Positions 14,783 through 22,144 of a stretch of DNA of 64,000 nt are shown in pieces; the stretch's first letter is position 1; each line of letters opens with the position of its first letter. The notes under the pieces were generated by a model. That model had not been told where the DNA came from. It ran no database searches and was given only the letters and a program-made list of their open reading frames with translations. The DNA comes from Patescibacteria group bacterium (lineage in GTDB: Bacteria; Patescibacteriota; Minisyncoccia; UBA6257; 2-01-FULL-56-20). Position numbers and translations under genes: made by a program. The stretch is from contig JAGXBC010000001.1 of NCBI GenBank assembly GCA_018971305.1, positions 245,687-309,686 on the forward strand, given 5' to 3'.

Positions 14783-14899
14783 TGTTTTTAGGTTTTACCC
14801 ACCTGCCTCGTCTGCCGACTGGCAGGGCTATTTTAGGTGTTTGGCTTTTAGTTGATCTTAGCGGGGGCTTCCTAAAAGCCAAAAGTCAAAACCTAAAAG

Positions 14900-16156
14900 C
14901 TAGGTGTTTATTGGAGGCTTCGGCAGATTAACGTCTGATTGGTTTAGAGCTTGCGATGGCGACTGATCGCCGGGAATAGCTTTATTTTTTTCCAATATTT
15001 TTATTTTCTCAAACTCGCCCATTGTATCTTTAATTTGCGGTAAAGATTGTGGCGGTTCTGCTCTTTTGATTATCGGTGATCCTGCAAAGAGCGGTCTGAC
15101 TTGTTCGTTATTCCCCTCTATTTTTTTTGTTCCGGTGTCGTTCGCGATGGGCTGTGGCATGTCACCCACAATCGTCTTTAGTCCGGTGTAGTGTACTACC
15201 CTGGGCTGTTCTTGTTTCTGGGCAATAATTTCTGGTTGTGTGTTTGGGGCAGATGGCTGTTGGCTCTTTATATCTTTTGTAATTGGAGAGAAAACAAATT
15301 TATCCATTTTTGCCACCGGCGGACGTGGTGGTGGGGCTGGCTTCATTACTCCTTTATTTGTCGTGAATGAAACGGAGCCGCCGATTTCTATTTTTGCCGG
15401 TCCAAGCGGAGCTTGTCTGTCCTTAGTTTCTGAAATTTTCTGTTCGGGGATATTTATTCTGAACTCCGAGGCCGATTTTGTAGGAGAAGCCGGAGCTTCT
15501 TCGCGATGAAGCATTGCCGGGGGCGGTTCGTCGGGGGATTCTTCGGTTGATATTTTTTCTGTCCCATAATCAATACGTTCCGCTTTCTGGTTCTGTATTC
15601 CTTGCCGCCTATCACTCACCGCTTGTTGCTGGGCGGGAGATTCAGTGAGACGTGACGGTGGTATTTTCTTTCCCAACTCCATTCTCTCAAATTCCCCGAT
15701 GGGCTCTTTCTGTTTTTCCACCTGTAGTGTGGCGGAGAGCGTGGGTTTTGCAGAGACGAATGTTTCGCCGATATCTATCCCTCCCGGTCGGCGGATTTCT
15801 TCCATTACCCTCGGAGCGATCATATCAAATTTTGAAATCGGTTCATGCACAGACATAATATCGGCTTTCAGGGGATCAAAAATTCTCTTGTTTATCGCGC
15901 CGGCTATTGTGTCTGCGGCCTGCGGTACGATTCCCAACTCTTTAAGCTCTCCCGCCATGTCTTCCGGATGGATGAATCCCAAAATCACGTGGCCGAAAAT
16001 CCTTACCACATAATTTATTTGTTCTTCTGGCAGATGCTCATTGCCGCAAGTTTTCCAAATGAAATCGGAGTTCGCTTCCGAGACCATCGCTTCGCGCAAA
16101 ACATCCGGGATATTATCCCATCGTTCCAGCGCTTGATTTTGTGTGACTGTTACCAT
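14900..16156 (-). CDS. hypothetical protein with a globular N-domain and a long Pro-rich tail (T4SS-like operon member)
   Basis: 418 aa, no TM. The C-terminal two thirds are rich in P/Q/E/K (KPAPPPRPPVAKMD, PPINT). Confidence 0.45.
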   Translation of the reverse strand: MVTVTQNQALERWDNIPDVLREAMVSEANSDFIWKTCGNEHLPEEQINYVVRIFGHVILGFIHPEDMAGELKELGIVPQAADTIAGAINKRIFDPLKADIMSVHEPISKFDMIAPRVMEEIRRPGGIDIGETFVSAKPTLSATLQVEKQKEPIGEFERMELGKKIPPSRLTESPAQQQAVSDRRQGIQNQKAERIDYGTEKISTEESPDEPPPAMLHREEAPASPTKSASEFRINIPEQKISETKDRQAPLGPAKIEIGGSVSFTTNKGVMKPAPPPRPPVAKMDKFVFSPITKDIKSQQPSAPNTQPEIIAQKQEQPRVVHYTGLKTIVGDMPQPIANDTGTKKIEGNNEQVRPLFAGSPIIKRAEPPQSLPQIKDTMGEFEKIKILEKNKAIPGDQSPSQALNQSDVNLPKPPINT

Positions 16157-18746: not shown

Positions 18747-20618
18747 TTATAGATTAAGCAGTGAGCCGCCGGTGAATTTTCCGATAAGGCCATTTATGAA
18801 CGAAGCAAGGAATCCTGCTACGGCGTTCGCGTTCGCGGAAAGATGAATGTCGCCTCCAAGAGCGCTGGATAGTTTGTTGCCGATAGTGGCTCCAGGTGTG
18901 GTTATGAGTTGTTTAGATAGGCTTGGCGTTTTACATACTTCAGCGCTACAAGTTCCATTGGTACAGGTTGTTAGTTGGGTCTGAGTGTAGCCTGCTTGAA
19001 TTTCGTTGTTGACATTCGCTGTTATGGTGTTTACAGCATCTGTTTGGCTTTGGCCCGTAATATCGTTCACATCATAAGATGCGCTATATGGCAAGCAATC
19101 TCCGCCACTGCTTATGCCACCCCCAGTGTCTGTCCCGGGGAAACCTTGGCCGGCGACGGCTCTGTTTACTTGGGAGTTAAGCGCCGCGGCCGCATCTGAC
19201 AATTGTTTGTCGTGGGCGAGAGACAGGAATCCGAAAAAGTTATTATTTGGCCGCAACATTGCTCCGAAACCATTCCATCCCCCCCTGCTGAAATCGCCAT
19301 AGAAAGCATTTGCATCTGTTAAGACGAGCCTTAAGTCGCTTTTCGGAGTCGCATTTAGTGCCGTAAGGTTTAACATTTTCCCCACTAAACCGCTGAAGGA
19401 CGGATCTCCGCGGGCTACGCTCATGGTAAGTGATTGAGCCGCTGCCGTATCAAACGCTTTAGCCTGGTAATTCAGCCAATTGGTTATGAATTTCGGAGCG
19501 CCGGAACCCTGCACATACTTGACCATTGCCTGTTGTATTGTGTTTACAAGTTGCGTTCTTAGGACCAGTATGAGGGCTTGTTCTATAATCTTCCAGATAT
19601 TCGTTACAATATCGTTTATCAATGAGCTAATTTGGGTGCCCAAGCGTATGGGGCCAGTATAGTCAGCGTACGCTGTTTTGACGCCGATTAATTGATTTAT
19701 AAATGCCAAGACCCCCGTCTTTGTTTCTTGATGCACGGAGAGAGATTTTTGCAATCCGGCTTTTTCAAACTCGGTTTGTAGGTCGGAAGCTACGGTAGGC
19801 AGGACATTTTTTTCTGCTTGGGCGATAAGATAAGTTTTCACAGGATCGTCAGTTGTTTCCACATTTACTCCCATGTCGGCGAAGTTTTTTTCATAAACTA
19901 TCGCCGCGAGCAGGCTTTTATGGAAGCCAACAAGCGTAGACGGAATTGTTATCGATTGTGTGCTGCTTGCGGCCTTAGCTAACGTTTCGGCAACCGGCTG
20001 AAGTTCGCTCGGGTTTGCCGTGGTCGGATCTTTTTCTAAAAAGGCCGTAATAACTTGATTGGTCGTATATTGATTAAATATATTATCCAGCTCGGTGATG
20101 TATCTCTCTTTGGCGGCCACCGAGTTGTCGTCGGAAATATTGACCGTCAGTGCCTTGGCCTCGGCAATCCAGTCCGGAGCCTGGAGGGTCTGTATTTCGG
20201 GGGCGCCCGTTAGCTGATTTAGTAAGCTCGTCTGGTCCGGCATATTCAGCGAAGTTTGGCCGTCGGCGGTTTGTTGCGGTCCGGAGGGATTTGCGAGAAC
20301 AATTTGCCGCGCAAAACTGTCGGCAAAATCATGCGTAAGGTTCCCGGTTGTCTCCGCCGGCGGTAAGTCGCTGGCTTTTATCGCAACCGATCCGGCCGAA
20401 TTAACTGTTTGATTATCTGTTATTTGGGGAGCAACTGCATACTGATCCGTAAAAGCATTGCCAGGCACCAAATTGGCATAATTCTGTGACTGGTTGGAGA
20501 TGTTAGCTTGCTGGGTTAGGGTCTGGTTATTTTGCCAGTCGAGAAAAATCAAACCCGCGGAACTCATAATTGCCGCCAAAACCAAAAACCCCCCTATTAA
20601 CTTTTTTAAATCTATCAT
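18747..20618 (-). CDS. large membrane-anchored extracytoplasmic protein, first gene of the T4SS-like operon
   Basis: N-terminal TM LIGGFLVLAAIMSSAGLIFL, then ~590 aa rich in Q/T/N/S. No catalytic motif recognised. Confidence 0.5.
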   Translation of the reverse strand: MIDLKKLIGGFLVLAAIMSSAGLIFLDWQNNQTLTQQANISNQSQNYANLVPGNAFTDQYAVAPQITDNQTVNSAGSVAIKASDLPPAETTGNLTHDFADSFARQIVLANPSGPQQTADGQTSLNMPDQTSLLNQLTGAPEIQTLQAPDWIAEAKALTVNISDDNSVAAKERYITELDNIFNQYTTNQVITAFLEKDPTTANPSELQPVAETLAKAASSTQSITIPSTLVGFHKSLLAAIVYEKNFADMGVNVETTDDPVKTYLIAQAEKNVLPTVASDLQTEFEKAGLQKSLSVHQETKTGVLAFINQLIGVKTAYADYTGPIRLGTQISSLINDIVTNIWKIIEQALILVLRTQLVNTIQQAMVKYVQGSGAPKFITNWLNYQAKAFDTAAAQSLTMSVARGDPSFSGLVGKMLNLTALNATPKSDLRLVLTDANAFYGDFSRGGWNGFGAMLRPNNNFFGFLSLAHDKQLSDAAAALNSQVNRAVAGQGFPGTDTGGGISSGGDCLPYSASYDVNDITGQSQTDAVNTITANVNNEIQAGYTQTQLTTCTNGTCSAEVCKTPSLSKQLITTPGATIGNKLSSALGGDIHLSANANAVAGFLASFINGLIGKFTGGSLLNL

Positions 20619-20728
20619 TCATTATTATTATAGCGTATTTACTGTCTAGAACCGCGATAAAAGTTATGCACACTGGTTATTTATTCATTCATAGTTAGGG
20701 TGCATGCTACACGGAAAACAAAAAGAGT

Positions 20729-21595
20729 TTATTTGTCCAATAAATCCGCTATTTTTTTGATATCTTCGATGCTTAAATTTTGCGGCCTATCGTTTGGTTT
20801 TATATCAATTTTTTGCAATTTTTCCGAGATCCACTCCTTCGTTTTCCGTGGTTGGTAATTCGCGGCCAAATTGTTGAGTATTGTCTTCCGCGGTTGAGCA
20901 AATAGCATGCGAATTGTTTTATAGTAATTTATGCTTCTGTCTTCTGGCTTCTGATTTATAACTTCCAACCTTATCACTGCTGAATCTACTTCCGGAGGCG
21001 GGGAAAAATTTTCCCGTGACACCCTCATCACGATTTTCGCTATCGCCCAAAACTGGATGCTCGCGGCAAGGCGGTTCATCCCGTTGGGGGCAGGTGTGCG
21101 CTGCGGGCCCTCGCAGCCTCTAACGGGATTCATTTTCGGCACAGCGCAGATTCTTTCTGCAACCTCGTTTTGAATCATAAAGACGCACAACTCCGGCTTA
21201 TTCTCCAGCTCCCCGATTGTGCGAAGCAGGTGTCCAGTAATGTAGTATGGGATATTGCCGACCAATTTCCATTTTGACGTTTTCAGCTCTCCGGCAGAAA
21301 CAAGCTTAGGAATTATTTCCAGGGCATCGCCATCCACGACTTCCATATTTTTATTTTCGGAAAATTTTACACGCAGCAACTCAGCAAGTTTTTCATCTTT
21401 TTCAATCGCGACGATTGTTATCCCCACCCCGCCATTTTTGGAAATTGGAAATTGGAAATTGGAAATTTCGCTTGTCAGCTCCCCGTGCCCAGCGCCCACC
21501 TCTAAAACAACGTCGCCGGACTTCAGTTCCAATATTTTAACAATGTCTTTTAGAACGGTTCCGTTTTTAAGGAAATGTTGTCCTAGTCTTCTCAT
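20729..21595 (-). CDS. ksgA: 16S rRNA (adenine1518/1519-N6)-dimethyltransferase KsgA/RsmA
   Basis: MRRLGQHFLKNGTVLKDIV..., motif I VLEVGAGHGELT, C-terminal helical domain. It contains an ~18-aa insertion encoded by the heptanucleotide repeat listed below. Confidence 0.9.
   Translation of the reverse strand: MRRLGQHFLKNGTVLKDIVKILELKSGDVVLEVGAGHGELTSEISNFQFPISKNGGVGITIVAIEKDEKLAELLRVKFSENKNMEVVDGDALEIIPKLVSAGELKTSKWKLVGNIPYYITGHLLRTIGELENKPELCVFMIQNEVAERICAVPKMNPVRGCEGPQRTPAPNGMNRLAASIQFWAIAKIVMRVSRENFSPPPEVDSAVIRLEVINQKPEDRSINYYKTIRMLFAQPRKTILNNLAANYQPRKTKEWISEKLQKIDIKPNDRPQNLSIEDIKKIADLLDK
21440..21467. repeat. perfect tandem heptanucleotide microsatellite (GGAAATT)x4 inside the ksgA CDS
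   Basis: ggaaattggaaattggaaattggaaatt read directly from the sequence. It encodes ...EISNFQFPIS... within the KsgA insertion. Confidence 0.95.
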
Positions 21596-21619
21596 CTTAT
21601 TATATTAACCGTAGTATGG

Positions 21620-22144
21620 ATGAATTGTATAATTTTGTGCTCGCGAACCTCGCACATAACAAAGTATGTGTTGGGTGAGTCCGGTTCGTCCGGAGAAAAC
21701 AAACCCTTTGTTTATTTTCTGCTCTCTGACGGGTATAATAAAAATAACATGTTCCAATACTTGATGGCCGGGTATCTGCATAGTTGGCTCTTCCCATTTT
21801 TTTTCACGATAACGACCGAGACCATCATTTTGTGGCTGTTCGTAAGAAAAATCTTTCATATAAACGGGAGAGACCTGCCGCTTACGATTGTTATCGCGGC
21901 CGGAATTTTCGCCAATGGATTCACTCATCCACAGGTGTGGTTTGTCTTCCCGTTTATTTTTCAAAGCTATACTATTGCCATAGTTATTGCCGAACTTTTT
22001 GCCTTTATAGCGGAAGCTATTTTTTATAATATTTTCCTTAAAATAACTATAAAAAGGGCATTAATCGTTTCCCTGTCGGCTAACGCCTTCTCCTTTTTGG
22101 CGGGAATTTTCCTCCACTTTTTCGTAAACAGTAAGATATTTTAA
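21620..22144 (+). CDS. hypothetical multi-TM membrane protein (start likely internal, e.g. Met at 21749)
   Basis: Strongly hydrophobic (LWLFVRK..., IVIAAGIFANGF, IAIVIAELFAFIAEAIF). Co-directional with the next membrane gene, 18 nt apart. The overlapping minus-strand ORFs look non-coding. Confidence 0.4.
   Translation: MNCIILCSRTSHITKYVLGESGSSGENKPFVYFLLSDGYNKNNMFQYLMAGYLHSWLFPFFFTITTETIILWLFVRKIFHINGRDLPLTIVIAAGIFANGFTHPQVWFVFPFIFQSYTIAIVIAELFAFIAEAIFYNIFLKITIKRALIVSLSANAFSFLAGIFLHFFVNSKIF

What the first reader, a model, noticed from the sequence alone, without database searches (positions are those of the whole stretch)
21440..21467. Frameshift-prone (GGAAATT)x4 microsatellite inside the essential-type rRNA methyltransferase gene ksgA
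A perfect 7-bp tandem repeat, four copies, is read directly from the sequence. It encodes an insertion (EISNFQFPIS...) just after SAM-binding motif I and absent from canonical KsgA. The unit length is not a multiple of 3, so gain or loss of one or two units by slipped-strand mispairing would truncate KsgA; only changes of three units keep the frame. This is a classic phase-variation architecture. Loss of KsgA is known to confer kasugamycin resistance and alter ribosome maturation.
Basis: partly seen in the sequence, partly recalled or inferred. Interest (0 to 1): 0.5.

Follow-up and report, generated by a model that had tools for sequence, protein, structure and literature searches.

The report
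In-frame heptamer repeat scar in ksgA
The perfect (GGAAATT)x4 repeat in this Patescibacteria ksgA gene is real and could frameshift the gene, but it looks like one of many in-frame seven-base repeat insertions found across this bacterial group, including in essential genes, and not like a dedicated on/off switch.

Summary
The repeat is confirmed. Window 21440-21467 is a perfect (GGAAATT)x4, and the periodic tract runs 21438-21467 (30 nt). It lies in codons 43-53 of an intact KsgA/RsmA gene (20729-21595, minus strand) of a Patescibacteria MAG. Only 1, 4 or 7 units keep the frame.

The "classic phase-variation switch" reading is only partly supported.
- In 80 related species, 7-nt arrays outnumber every other period (51 against about 1.4 in shuffles). 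They are 8.5-fold denser in ksgA than in its flanks, and 35 of 80 ksgA genes carry one.
- All 81 ksgA genes are intact, and most arrays are decayed.
- The same (AATTTCC)n array sits in frame in LeuRS, PheS, TsaD, TrmD, Fmt and LepA in metagenomes. Its modal length there is 30 nt, which equals a 9-nt seed plus three units (+7 aa).
- The orthologous array in a 60%-identical KsgA has the same copy number. Five alleles of an independent lineage all have 4 units.

My best reading is a slippage-born +7-aa insertion in a tolerant surface loop. It remains a latent frameshift hotspot in a gene that is probably dispensable.

Two things remain unexplained: hairpins abut one side of such arrays, and arrays close together on one contig tend to share their unit.

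The parts
21440..21467 (-). Four perfect heptamer units, (AATTTCC)x4 on the coding strand and (GGAAATT)x4 on the plus strand. They cover nt 129-156 of ksgA and encode ISNFQFPIS.
21438..21467 (-). Full periodic tract of 30 nt (4.3 copies). It equals the inferred 9-nt seed AATTTCCAA (ancestral GAA ATT TCC AAA, E-I-S-K) plus 21 nt, that is three added units and +7 aa.
   Evidence: TRF. Coding-strand reading. A 30-nt modal length for coding arrays of the same unit.
20729..21595 (-). Intact ksgA/rsmA ORF of 288 aa (16S rRNA A1518/A1519 dimethyltransferase).
   Evidence: Pfam RrnaAD 1.8e-44. TIGR00755 190.4 bits against a cutoff of 171. KsgA structures are the top sequence and fold matches.
21473..21496 (-). 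SAM-binding motif I (G34-T41, GAGHGELT), immediately 5' of the array in the gene.
   Evidence: Invariant columns G34, G36, G38, L40 and T41 in alignment A1.
21395..21415 (-). Strand beta2 and motif II (I61-D67, IVAIEKD). This is the 3' anchor of the variable aA-beta2 loop that holds the array.
   Evidence: Invariant E65 and D67. Strand E60-65 in the model.
20933..20953 (-). Second, imperfect heptamer array in the same gene: CAGAAGC CAGAAGA CAGAAGC, encoding QKPEDRS (aa 214-220). It lies in another loop of variable length.
   Evidence: TRF period 7, 3.0 copies, 85% matches. Variable alignment region. Coil between E205-212 and H221, block pLDDT 75.

Best explanation
The tract is an in-frame heptanucleotide simple-sequence repeat. 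It arose by slipped-strand mispairing from a 9-nt seed (AATTTCCAA inside ancestral GAA ATT TCC AAA), and selection kept only the state with three added units (21 nt, +7 aa). The added peptide lengthens the helix aA to strand beta2 surface loop of an otherwise intact KsgA and is probably close to neutral for the enzyme. It is one instance of a lineage-wide process in Paceibacteria-type Patescibacteria that scatters heptamer arrays of about four copies through coding DNA. ksgA is a preferred place, most simply because the gene is dispensable and has several loops that tolerate insertions. The tract is still pure, so it remains a latent frameshift hotspot. There is no sign that switching is frequent, selected or regulated.

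Shown: the repeat itself, its frame consequences, its loop location, the lineage-wide excess of heptamers, the excess in ksgA, the occurrence in essential genes, and the stable copy number in relatives.

Inferred: the seed-plus-three-units origin, neutrality of the insert, and dispensability of ksgA as the reason for the hotspot.
For: 1. Heptamer excess. In 289 kb from 80 species, non-overlapping TRF arrays of at least 2.8 copies number 51 for period 7. The other periods give 1 (period 5), 4 (period 6), 10 (period 8) and 7 (period 9). Shuffles give 1.4 for period 7. Perfect arrays of at least 4 copies occur only for periods 2, 3 and 7. A 50-kb E. coli control that includes rsmA has none.
2. 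ksgA hotspot. 37 arrays lie in 68 kb of ksgA against 14 in 221 kb of flanks, p = 2e-13. 35 of 80 species have at least one array in ksgA, with 14 at this site and 24 just before motif IV.
3. Frame filter. Of 123 (AATTTCC)n arrays from metagenomes, 90 lie in ORFs of at least 150 aa. Their perfect length peaks at 30-33 nt (59 of 90). The 20 non-coding arrays are mostly 21-26 nt, with outliers of 57 and 80 nt.
4. Essential hosts. Pfam identifies LeuRS x3, a class I tRNA synthetase, TsaD, TrmD x2, Fmt x2, LepA, an amidase, PheS, KsgA, RecG and UvrD.
5. Loop location. Residues 44-52 form the end of helix 39-46 and the coil 47-59. Block pLDDT is 66 in a model with mean pLDDT 89.
6. Stability and turnover. 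P0003 (60% identical) has AATTTCT AATTTCC AATTTCT AATTTCT AAT at the same site in the same register. Most ksgA arrays are decayed, and only 3 of 80 have a perfect tract of 26 nt or more.
7. Prior literature. Heptanucleotide repeats were reported as the most abundant class of 5-11-nt long SSRs in prokaryotes and attributed to polymerase slippage (Mrazek et al. 2007, as summarised in PMC4679880).
Against: - A perfect 30-nt tract in a gene that has diverged to 60% identity from its nearest relative implies repeated homogenisation, that is ongoing slippage. That is also what a contingency locus would show.
- Arrays in essential genes cannot have passed through viable frameshifted intermediates. 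Simple one-unit-at-a-time slippage is therefore incomplete as a mechanism.
- Arrays on one contig share their unit about ten times more often than arrays on different contigs.
- 14% of AATTTCC arrays abut a perfect hairpin on one side only. Purely local slippage predicts neither of these last two.
- No population data exist for the window's own organism.
Confidence: 0.62

Rival explanations
1. It is a real contingency locus. Slippage of the heptamer tract switches KsgA OFF and ON at an elevated rate, producing subpopulations with unmethylated A1518/A1519. Such cells would be resistant to kasugamycin-type aminoglycosides and have altered ribosome maturation. Second-order selection keeps the tract pure.
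For: - The frame arithmetic fits, and the position in the 5' part of the ORF is like neuO.
- RsmA is non-essential in a cultivated Saccharibacterium.
- ksgA is 8.5-fold enriched for heptamer arrays relative to its flanks. This fits a gene that tolerates, or benefits from, OFF intermediates.
- The tract is perfect despite deep divergence from P0003. The P0003 variant unit has spread to 3 of 4 units, which shows turnover.
Against: - There are only 4 units.
- 81 of 81 ksgA genes are in frame.
- Copy number is identical in the orthologous P0003 array and in five alleles of the P0104 lineage.
- Most ksgA arrays are decayed, so purity is not generally maintained.
- Identical arrays sit in essential genes, where switching would be lethal.
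- A search for truncated N-terminal products found only fragments at contig ends or chimeric contigs.
Confidence: 0.15
2. The array was not made from local sequence. It was copied in from elsewhere, either by ectopic template switching or gene conversion from another array of the same unit, or by break repair with snap-back synthesis. It would then be a kind of dispersed or mobile microsatellite with genome-specific units, comparable to cyanobacterial STRR or Beggiatoaceae TAACTGA arrays.
For: - Within-contig arrays share the same unit in 12% and 8% of pairs, against 1% between contigs.
- The same AATTTCC x4 occurs at the same KsgA loop in a second lineage, in a different reading register, so it originated independently.
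- 17 of 121 AATTTCC arrays directly abut a perfect 7-12-bp hairpin on their 5' side, against 0 of 118 on the 3' side and 0.4% at random positions.
- In several cases the first hairpin arm is conserved host coding sequence, for example PheS DTFWL in L146 and the glycosyltransferase GGSTDN motif in L094.
Against: - The window holds no other multi-copy AATTTCC site, and single units are not enriched (27 observed, 25.7 expected).
- The window array has no adjacent hairpin (reading).
- The two weaker arrays in the window use different units.
- The 30-nt length is exactly what a local seed plus three units predicts.
Confidence: 0.15
3. The heptamer tract is a functional nucleic-acid signal. It could be a binding array for a protein with a 7-nt footprint (cold-shock or S1-type) on the mRNA or single-stranded DNA, or an internal promoter or spacer element affecting neighbouring genes.
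For: - CspB has been reported to bind heptamer direct repeats, one protein per unit (reviewed in PMC4679880).
- The same unit recurs in many contexts.
Against: - There is no Rfam match and no promoter-like site at the tract.
- Units differ freely between lineages at the same site.
- Arrays decay.
- Coding arrays obey a frame filter and show no positional rule relative to gene starts.
Confidence: 0.05

Closest known systems
neuO O-acetyltransferase of E. coli K1 (CUS-3 prophage): heptanucleotide AAGACTC repeat in the 5' coding region
   Same: Both are 7-nt units inside the 5' part of an ORF. In both, only certain unit numbers give full-length protein, and the repeat is translated as a 7-aa periodic peptide (PMC13001214).
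   Different: neuO has 3-53 units (mode 20), and 65.6% of complete genomes are OFF. Mixed populations have been measured. Here there are 4 units, there is no variation in relatives, all genes are ON, and the host gene is a housekeeping rRNA methyltransferase.
Heptanucleotide long simple sequence repeats of prokaryotic genomes (Mrazek, Guo and Shah 2007, as summarised in PMC4679880)
   Same: A genome-wide excess specifically of 7-nt units among 5-11-nt repeats, attributed to polymerase slippage. The CPR loci examined here show the same bias.
   Different: [quoted passage not shown] Here the heptamer arrays are mostly inside genes, locked at about one plus three units, and concentrated in particular loops of ksgA.
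Genome-specific heptamer arrays: Beggiatoaceae and cyanobacterial TAACTGA direct repeats (PMC4679880), and cyanobacterial STRR heptamers (from my own knowledge)
   Same: Short arrays (2-6 copies) of a 7-nt unit dispersed through a genome. Here, arrays near one another tend to share a unit.
   Different: Those arrays are mostly intergenic, one unit dominates a genome, and many lie just upstream of start codons. The window array is coding and is the only one of its unit in 64 kb.
Haemophilus influenzae heptanucleotide SSRs: hmw1A/hmw2A promoter (TGAAAGA)13-38, in-ORF (AATTTTG)14, and (AACAACC)1-13
   Same: Slippage-prone heptamers linked to phase-variable or modulated expression, one of them inside an ORF and associated with a frameshift (PMC2651432).
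   Different: Those tracts are much longer, differ between strains, and are associated with adhesin and TonB-dependent receptor genes.

Membership tests
KsgA/RsmA 16S rRNA (A1518/A1519) dimethyltransferase | Sequence family membership above curated thresholds | tested here: met
   Pfam PF00398 at 152 bits against a cutoff of 24. NCBIfam equivalog TIGR00755 at 190.4 bits against a cutoff of 171.
KsgA/RsmA 16S rRNA (A1518/A1519) dimethyltransferase | SAM motif I (GxGxGxLT), acidic motif II (E65), motif III (D90) and catalytic motif IV (N-I/L-P-Y) | tested here: met
   G34, G36, G38, L40, T41, E65, D67, D90 and G113-N114-x-P116-Y117 are invariant columns of the 40-sequence alignment and are present in the window protein.
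KsgA/RsmA 16S rRNA (A1518/A1519) dimethyltransferase | Two-domain KsgA fold | tested here: met
   AlphaFold model with pLDDT 89 and pTM 0.86. The top 16 Foldseek PDB hits are all KsgA, with TM about 0.77-0.89.
KsgA/RsmA 16S rRNA (A1518/A1519) dimethyltransferase | Methylation of A1518/A1519 in vivo, and kasugamycin resistance on loss | not testable with these tools
   This needs rRNA modification mapping or genetics.
SSR contingency locus (phase-variable gene) | Perfect tandem repeat whose unit is not a multiple of 3, placed so that unit changes shift the frame | tested here: met
SSR contingency locus (phase-variable gene) | Repeat number differs among strains or close relatives | tested here: not met
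   The orthologous P0003 array has 4.4 units in the same register. Five alleles of the P0104 lineage all have 4 units. No close strains of the window organism are available.
SSR contingency locus (phase-variable gene) | Out-of-frame (OFF) alleles present in natural genomes or populations | tested here: not met
   0 of 81 ksgA genes are out of frame, although the sample is biased towards intact genes. The fragment search gave no clean OFF allele. Read-level data are not available.
SSR contingency locus (phase-variable gene) | Tract length in the range where slippage is frequent | tested here: not met
   There are 4 units here. Heptamer repeats linked to phase variation in the papers read mostly carry more: neuO 3-53 (mode 20), hmw 13-38, AACAACC up to 13.
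SSR contingency locus (phase-variable gene) | Gene can be lost without death | tested here: inconclusive
   RsmA is scored NE in the Tn-seq of Southlakia epibionticum (PMC10633639 supplement). This has not been tested in this lineage.
Heptanucleotide long SSR (slippage-derived) | Array longer than chance, with 7-nt units predominating among 5-11-nt repeats in the lineage | tested here: met
Genome-specific dispersed heptamer arrays (TAACTGA or STRR type) | One unit recurring at many, mostly intergenic, sites of the same genome | tested here: not met
   There is only one multi-copy AATTTCC site in the 64-kb window, and it is coding. Single units occur at the chance level. The whole genome was not available.

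The most novel reading that the evidence does not exclude
Heptamer arrays in Paceibacteria-type CPR bacteria may not be ordinary microsatellites. They could be the footprint of a distinct mutational or repair process that is sequence- and polarity-specific, primed next to snap-back hairpins, with units preferred by each genome, and that adds units in bursts. Such a process would insert 7-aa peptides into housekeeping proteins. Under this reading the dispensable ksgA is its favoured target and is repeatedly inactivated and restored over evolutionary time. The window tract would be a young, still active example that can switch KsgA off.
Probability: 0.15. Interest if true: 0.7.

Novelty: new member of a known kind. 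Interest (0 to 1): 0.42.

Why it matters
For this gene, the result means that ksgA in the MAG should be annotated as intact. It carries a 7-aa loop insertion and should not be treated as a pseudogene or as a demonstrated phase-variable gene.

More broadly, four-copy heptamer arrays appear to be a common source of 7-aa insertions in conserved proteins of Patescibacteria, with ksgA as a hotspot. They affect protein alignments, can join unrelated contigs (L215), and point to an unusual slippage or repair behaviour in a group whose DNA metabolism is barely known.

If ksgA does toggle in populations, it would link ribosome-maturation heterogeneity and aminoglycoside tolerance to a simple repeat in ultra-small bacteria.

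Tried and rejected
- Looking up the window protein and P0001 on contigs found nothing on record, so strain-level comparison of the window organism was impossible.
- The Rfam search of 20500-21900 gave only a meaningless lncRNA hit at E = 0.72. The promoter and terminator scan gave nothing at the tract, so an RNA or promoter role was set aside.
- I asked whether the peptide NFQFPIS is conserved as protein. It is not. The P0104 lineage reads the same DNA in another register (RNFQFPISNFR), and other lineages have unrelated units at the site.
- I asked whether AATTTCC is a dispersed repeat of the window. It is not.
- I searched for OFF alleles with the N-terminal 56 aa of P0104. Only 12 candidates were scored. 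The short products are a chimeric low-coverage contig joined at the array (L215), an ORF that stops 16 nt before its contig ends (L213), and a fragment followed by unrelated sequence (L214).
- I asked whether the GC-rich palindromic insert is a dispersed element. It occurs only at the same ksgA site in L006 and L091.
- I first read the hairpins next to arrays as terminators. Most of these arrays lie inside long ORFs, so I dropped that reading.
- Literature searches found nothing that links heptamer repeats or phase variation to Patescibacteria or to ksgA.

Full report
**1. Observation**

The plus strand at 21440-21467 is ggaaatt repeated four times without a mismatch. TRF extends the periodic tract to 21438-21467: period 7, 4.3 copies, 100% matches. 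A run of this length at lag 7 is expected about 1.5e-8 times in a 64-kb sequence of this composition. It never appeared in 300 shuffles. It is the only strong tract of period 5 to 11 in the window.

The tract lies in ORF 20729-21595 on the minus strand (288 aa). This ORF is a KsgA/RsmA 16S rRNA dimethyltransferase.
- Pfam RrnaAD matches at 1.8e-44.
- The NCBIfam equivalog TIGR00755 scores 190 bits, above its cutoff of 171.
- KsgA structures are the best sequence matches and the best fold matches.

An identical protein is recorded from an NCBI "Patescibacteria group bacterium" MAG with locus tag KGJ89_01365.

On the coding strand the tract reads (AATTTCC)x4 and encodes ISNFQFPIS immediately after motif I. 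Solved KsgA proteins show a 10-residue gap at this point. I rebuilt the gene with 0 to 8 units. Full-length products appear only for 1, 4 and 7 units. All other numbers stop the product after 49-73 residues.

**2. Where the insert sits in the protein**

An AlphaFold model built from 40 homologues has mean pLDDT 89 and pTM 0.86. It places residues 44-52 at the end of helix 39-46 and in the coil 47-59 that precedes strand 60-65, which carries motif II. This stretch is one of three low-confidence regions of the model. All catalytic and SAM-binding motifs are intact. The tract therefore lengthens a surface loop of an enzyme that looks functional.

**3. Relatives**

The nearest other KsgA proteins are only 50-60% identical, and all come from Patescibacteria. 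In a 40-sequence alignment the segment after motif I varies greatly in length. Its peptides look like translated 7-nt repeats.

I fetched ksgA with flanks from 80 GTDB species representatives and read the DNA at this site. Many show lag-7 or lag-8 periodicity with quite different units, for example GAAAGTT, AGAAATA, CTCAAAT, AATTTCT and ATTGAAAG.

TRF on the 289 kb gave these counts of non-overlapping arrays with at least 2.8 copies:

| Period | Arrays observed |
|---|---|
| 5 | 1 |
| 6 | 4 |
| 7 | 51 |
| 8 | 10 |
| 9 | 7 |

Shuffles that preserve local composition gave 1.4 for period 7 (the overlapping count is). Perfect arrays of four or more copies exist only for periods 2, 3 and 7. A 50-kb stretch of E. 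coli K-12 that includes rsmA has no period-7 array at all.

The arrays are concentrated in ksgA.
- 37 lie in 68 kb of ksgA against 14 in 221 kb of flanks, p = 2e-13.
- 35 of 80 species carry at least one. Fourteen are at the site of the finding, 24 lie immediately before motif IV, and 17 are elsewhere.
- Copy numbers cluster at about 4.3-4.6.
- Only 3 of 80 genes have a perfect tract of 26 nt or more, so most arrays are decayed.
- All 80 genes, and the window gene, are in frame.

The window gene holds a second, imperfect array, CAGAAGC CAGAAGA CAGAAGC (QKPEDRS, 20933-20953), in another variable loop.

**4. The same heptamer elsewhere**

- 90 of 123 arrays lie inside ORFs of at least 150 aa.
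- In coding DNA the perfect length peaks sharply at 30-33 nt (59 of 90, with 28 at exactly 30 nt), and lengths of 28-29 nt are almost absent.
- The 20 clearly non-coding arrays are mostly 21-26 nt, with outliers of 57 and 80 nt.

This is the pattern expected if units are added in variable numbers and selection keeps only additions of three units on top of a seed with at least 2 nt of microhomology. The window tract fits exactly. GAA ATT TCC AAA (E-I-S-K) contains AATTTCCAA, and 9 + 21 = 30 nt.

Pfam shows that the host ORFs include leucyl-tRNA synthetase (three times, at one site), another class I tRNA synthetase, PheS, TsaD (two arrays), TrmD, methionyl-tRNA formyltransferase, LepA, an amidase of GatA type, RecG, UvrD and another KsgA. 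Several of these genes are essential in bacteria generally. A non-triplet repeat inside an ORF is therefore not evidence for a switch in these organisms. These contigs also carry 150 further period-7 arrays with other units, against 8, 26, 48 and 32 arrays for periods 5, 6, 8 and 9.

**5. Stability and turnover**

P0003 is the KsgA closest to the window apart from the identical record (60% identity). It has AATTTCT AATTTCC AATTTCT AATTTCT AAT at the same site and in the same reading register. The array therefore predates the split of the two lineages, and the copy number has not changed.

Three of the four P0003 units share the same C-to-T variant. This is unlikely for independent substitutions (about 1e-3). 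It indicates homogenisation by slippage or conversion. The perfect state of the window tract points the same way.

A second lineage (P0104, a Nealsonbacteria-type KsgA, 47% identity) carries exactly (AATTTCC)x4 in the same loop but in another register (RNFQFPISNFR), so it arose independently. Five near-identical alleles of that lineage, two of them on 23 and 19 contigs, all have four units.

A search with the N-terminal 56 residues for truncated products returned only a chimeric low-coverage contig joined at the array and short fragments on small contigs. It gave no clean OFF allele.

For comparison, the heptamer switch in neuO has 3-53 units, and 65.6% of complete genomes are OFF (PMC13001214). 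H. influenzae heptamer tracts linked to phase variation have up to 38 units and differ between strains (PMC2651432).

**6. Interpretation**

The best-supported reading is a slippage-derived heptanucleotide repeat fixed in its in-frame state. It adds seven residues to a tolerant loop and belongs to a lineage-wide class.

A heptamer bias among longer simple repeats, attributed to the length of DNA that interacts with the polymerase, was already described for other prokaryotes (Mrazek et al. 2007, as summarised in PMC4679880). I therefore rate the finding as a new member of a known kind.

The phase-variation idea is not excluded.
- The tract is pure and has clearly turned over.
- RsmA is non-essential in the Tn-seq of a cultivated Saccharibacterium (PMC10633639, supplementary file 1).
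- The strong excess of arrays in ksgA is what one would expect if frameshifted intermediates are tolerated there.

However, no variation or OFF state was seen anywhere. Four units is short. Most ksgA arrays are left to decay. I give the switch reading about 0.15.

**7. What remains unexplained**

- Arrays in essential genes cannot have passed through viable single-unit frameshifts, so units must sometimes be added in bursts or copied in as a block.
- Arrays on the same contig share their unit about ten times more often than arrays on different contigs.
- 17 of 121 AATTTCC arrays directly abut a perfect 7-12-bp hairpin on their 5' side. None of 118 do so on the 3' side, and the figure is 0.4% at random positions.
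- In several cases the first hairpin arm is conserved host coding sequence, so the second arm looks like part of the insertion.

These points suggest template switching or snap-back synthesis in at least a subset of events. The window tract itself has no adjacent hairpin. The window holds no second array of its unit.

**8. Negative checks**

- No Rfam family matches the tract, and there is no promoter-like site at it.
- No paper in the searchable library connects heptamer repeats or phase variation with Patescibacteria or ksgA.

Noticed in passing
window 21078-21129 (minus strand; ksgA aa about 156-172): A GC-rich, in-frame palindromic insert, ATCCCGTT..AACGGGAT. It folds at -22 kcal/mol within a 66-nt segment and encodes NPVRGCEGPQRTPAPNG, flanked by ATGAAT and ATGAAC. 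About 15 of 40 CPR KsgA homologues have an insert at this site and the rest lack one. The DNA ends are conserved in L091 and L006, and the motif was not found elsewhere in the window or in the other fetched loci. It resembles the in-frame palindromic elements of Rickettsia (from my own knowledge).
   Followed up: partly
window 20933-20953 (minus strand): A second heptamer array in the same ksgA gene: CAGAAGC CAGAAGA CAGAAGC, encoding QKPEDRS, in another variable loop.
   Followed up: yes
window 14874-14900: A third, degenerate heptamer array (AAAAGCC x3.9, 75% matches). It lies in the gap between two minus-strand ORFs, directly after the stop codon of the 418-aa ORF.
   Followed up: partly
L001-L080 (ksgA starts at about 1501 in most loci): Heptamer arrays recur at fixed loops of ksgA in 35 of 80 species, and several lie just upstream of the start codon. 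Octamer arrays occupy the same site in some species (L030, L075, L077). At site 2 the unit often contains the conserved Y-K-L codons of strand beta4.
   Followed up: partly
L092-L211 (metagenome contigs with AATTTCC arrays): The same array sits in frame at the same position of LeuRS in three organisms (L102, L107, L145) and of Fmt in two (L111, L116). The coding orientation is biased, with 67 arrays in the AATTTCC sense against 37 in the GGAAATT sense (p = 0.004).
   Followed up: partly
L093, L094, L104, L110, L114, L146, L156, L159, L170, L203 and others: A perfect hairpin of variable sequence ends exactly at the 5' edge of the AATTTCC array: 17 of 121 arrays, against none at the 3' edge. In several cases the first arm is conserved coding sequence of the host gene.
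   Followed up: partly
L013, L034, L046, L063, L097, L117, L118, L130, L131, L143: Different arrays on one contig use the same heptamer, sometimes in opposite orientation and in different genes.
   Followed up: partly
P0006, P0084, P0104 (KsgA homologues): Other short in-frame inserts recur in CPR KsgA. LRQAQGKP occurs once or twice. In P0006 an SGQAS...LRRAG element interrupts what looks like a heptamer-derived peptide at site 1. P0104 has a 10-aa tandem duplication, EADKRGSMRI IEADKRGF.
   Followed up: no
L215 (577-nt contig, coverage about 2): The 5' end of P0104-type ksgA is joined to unrelated sequence after 2.3 units of the array. This is probably an assembly chimera through the shared repeat, which shows that these arrays can mislead assemblers.
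   Followed up: partly
L089 position 2692: In one groundwater sample, a G-to-T difference coincides with the 284-aa hypothetical gene downstream of ksgA being called as two ORFs.
   Followed up: no
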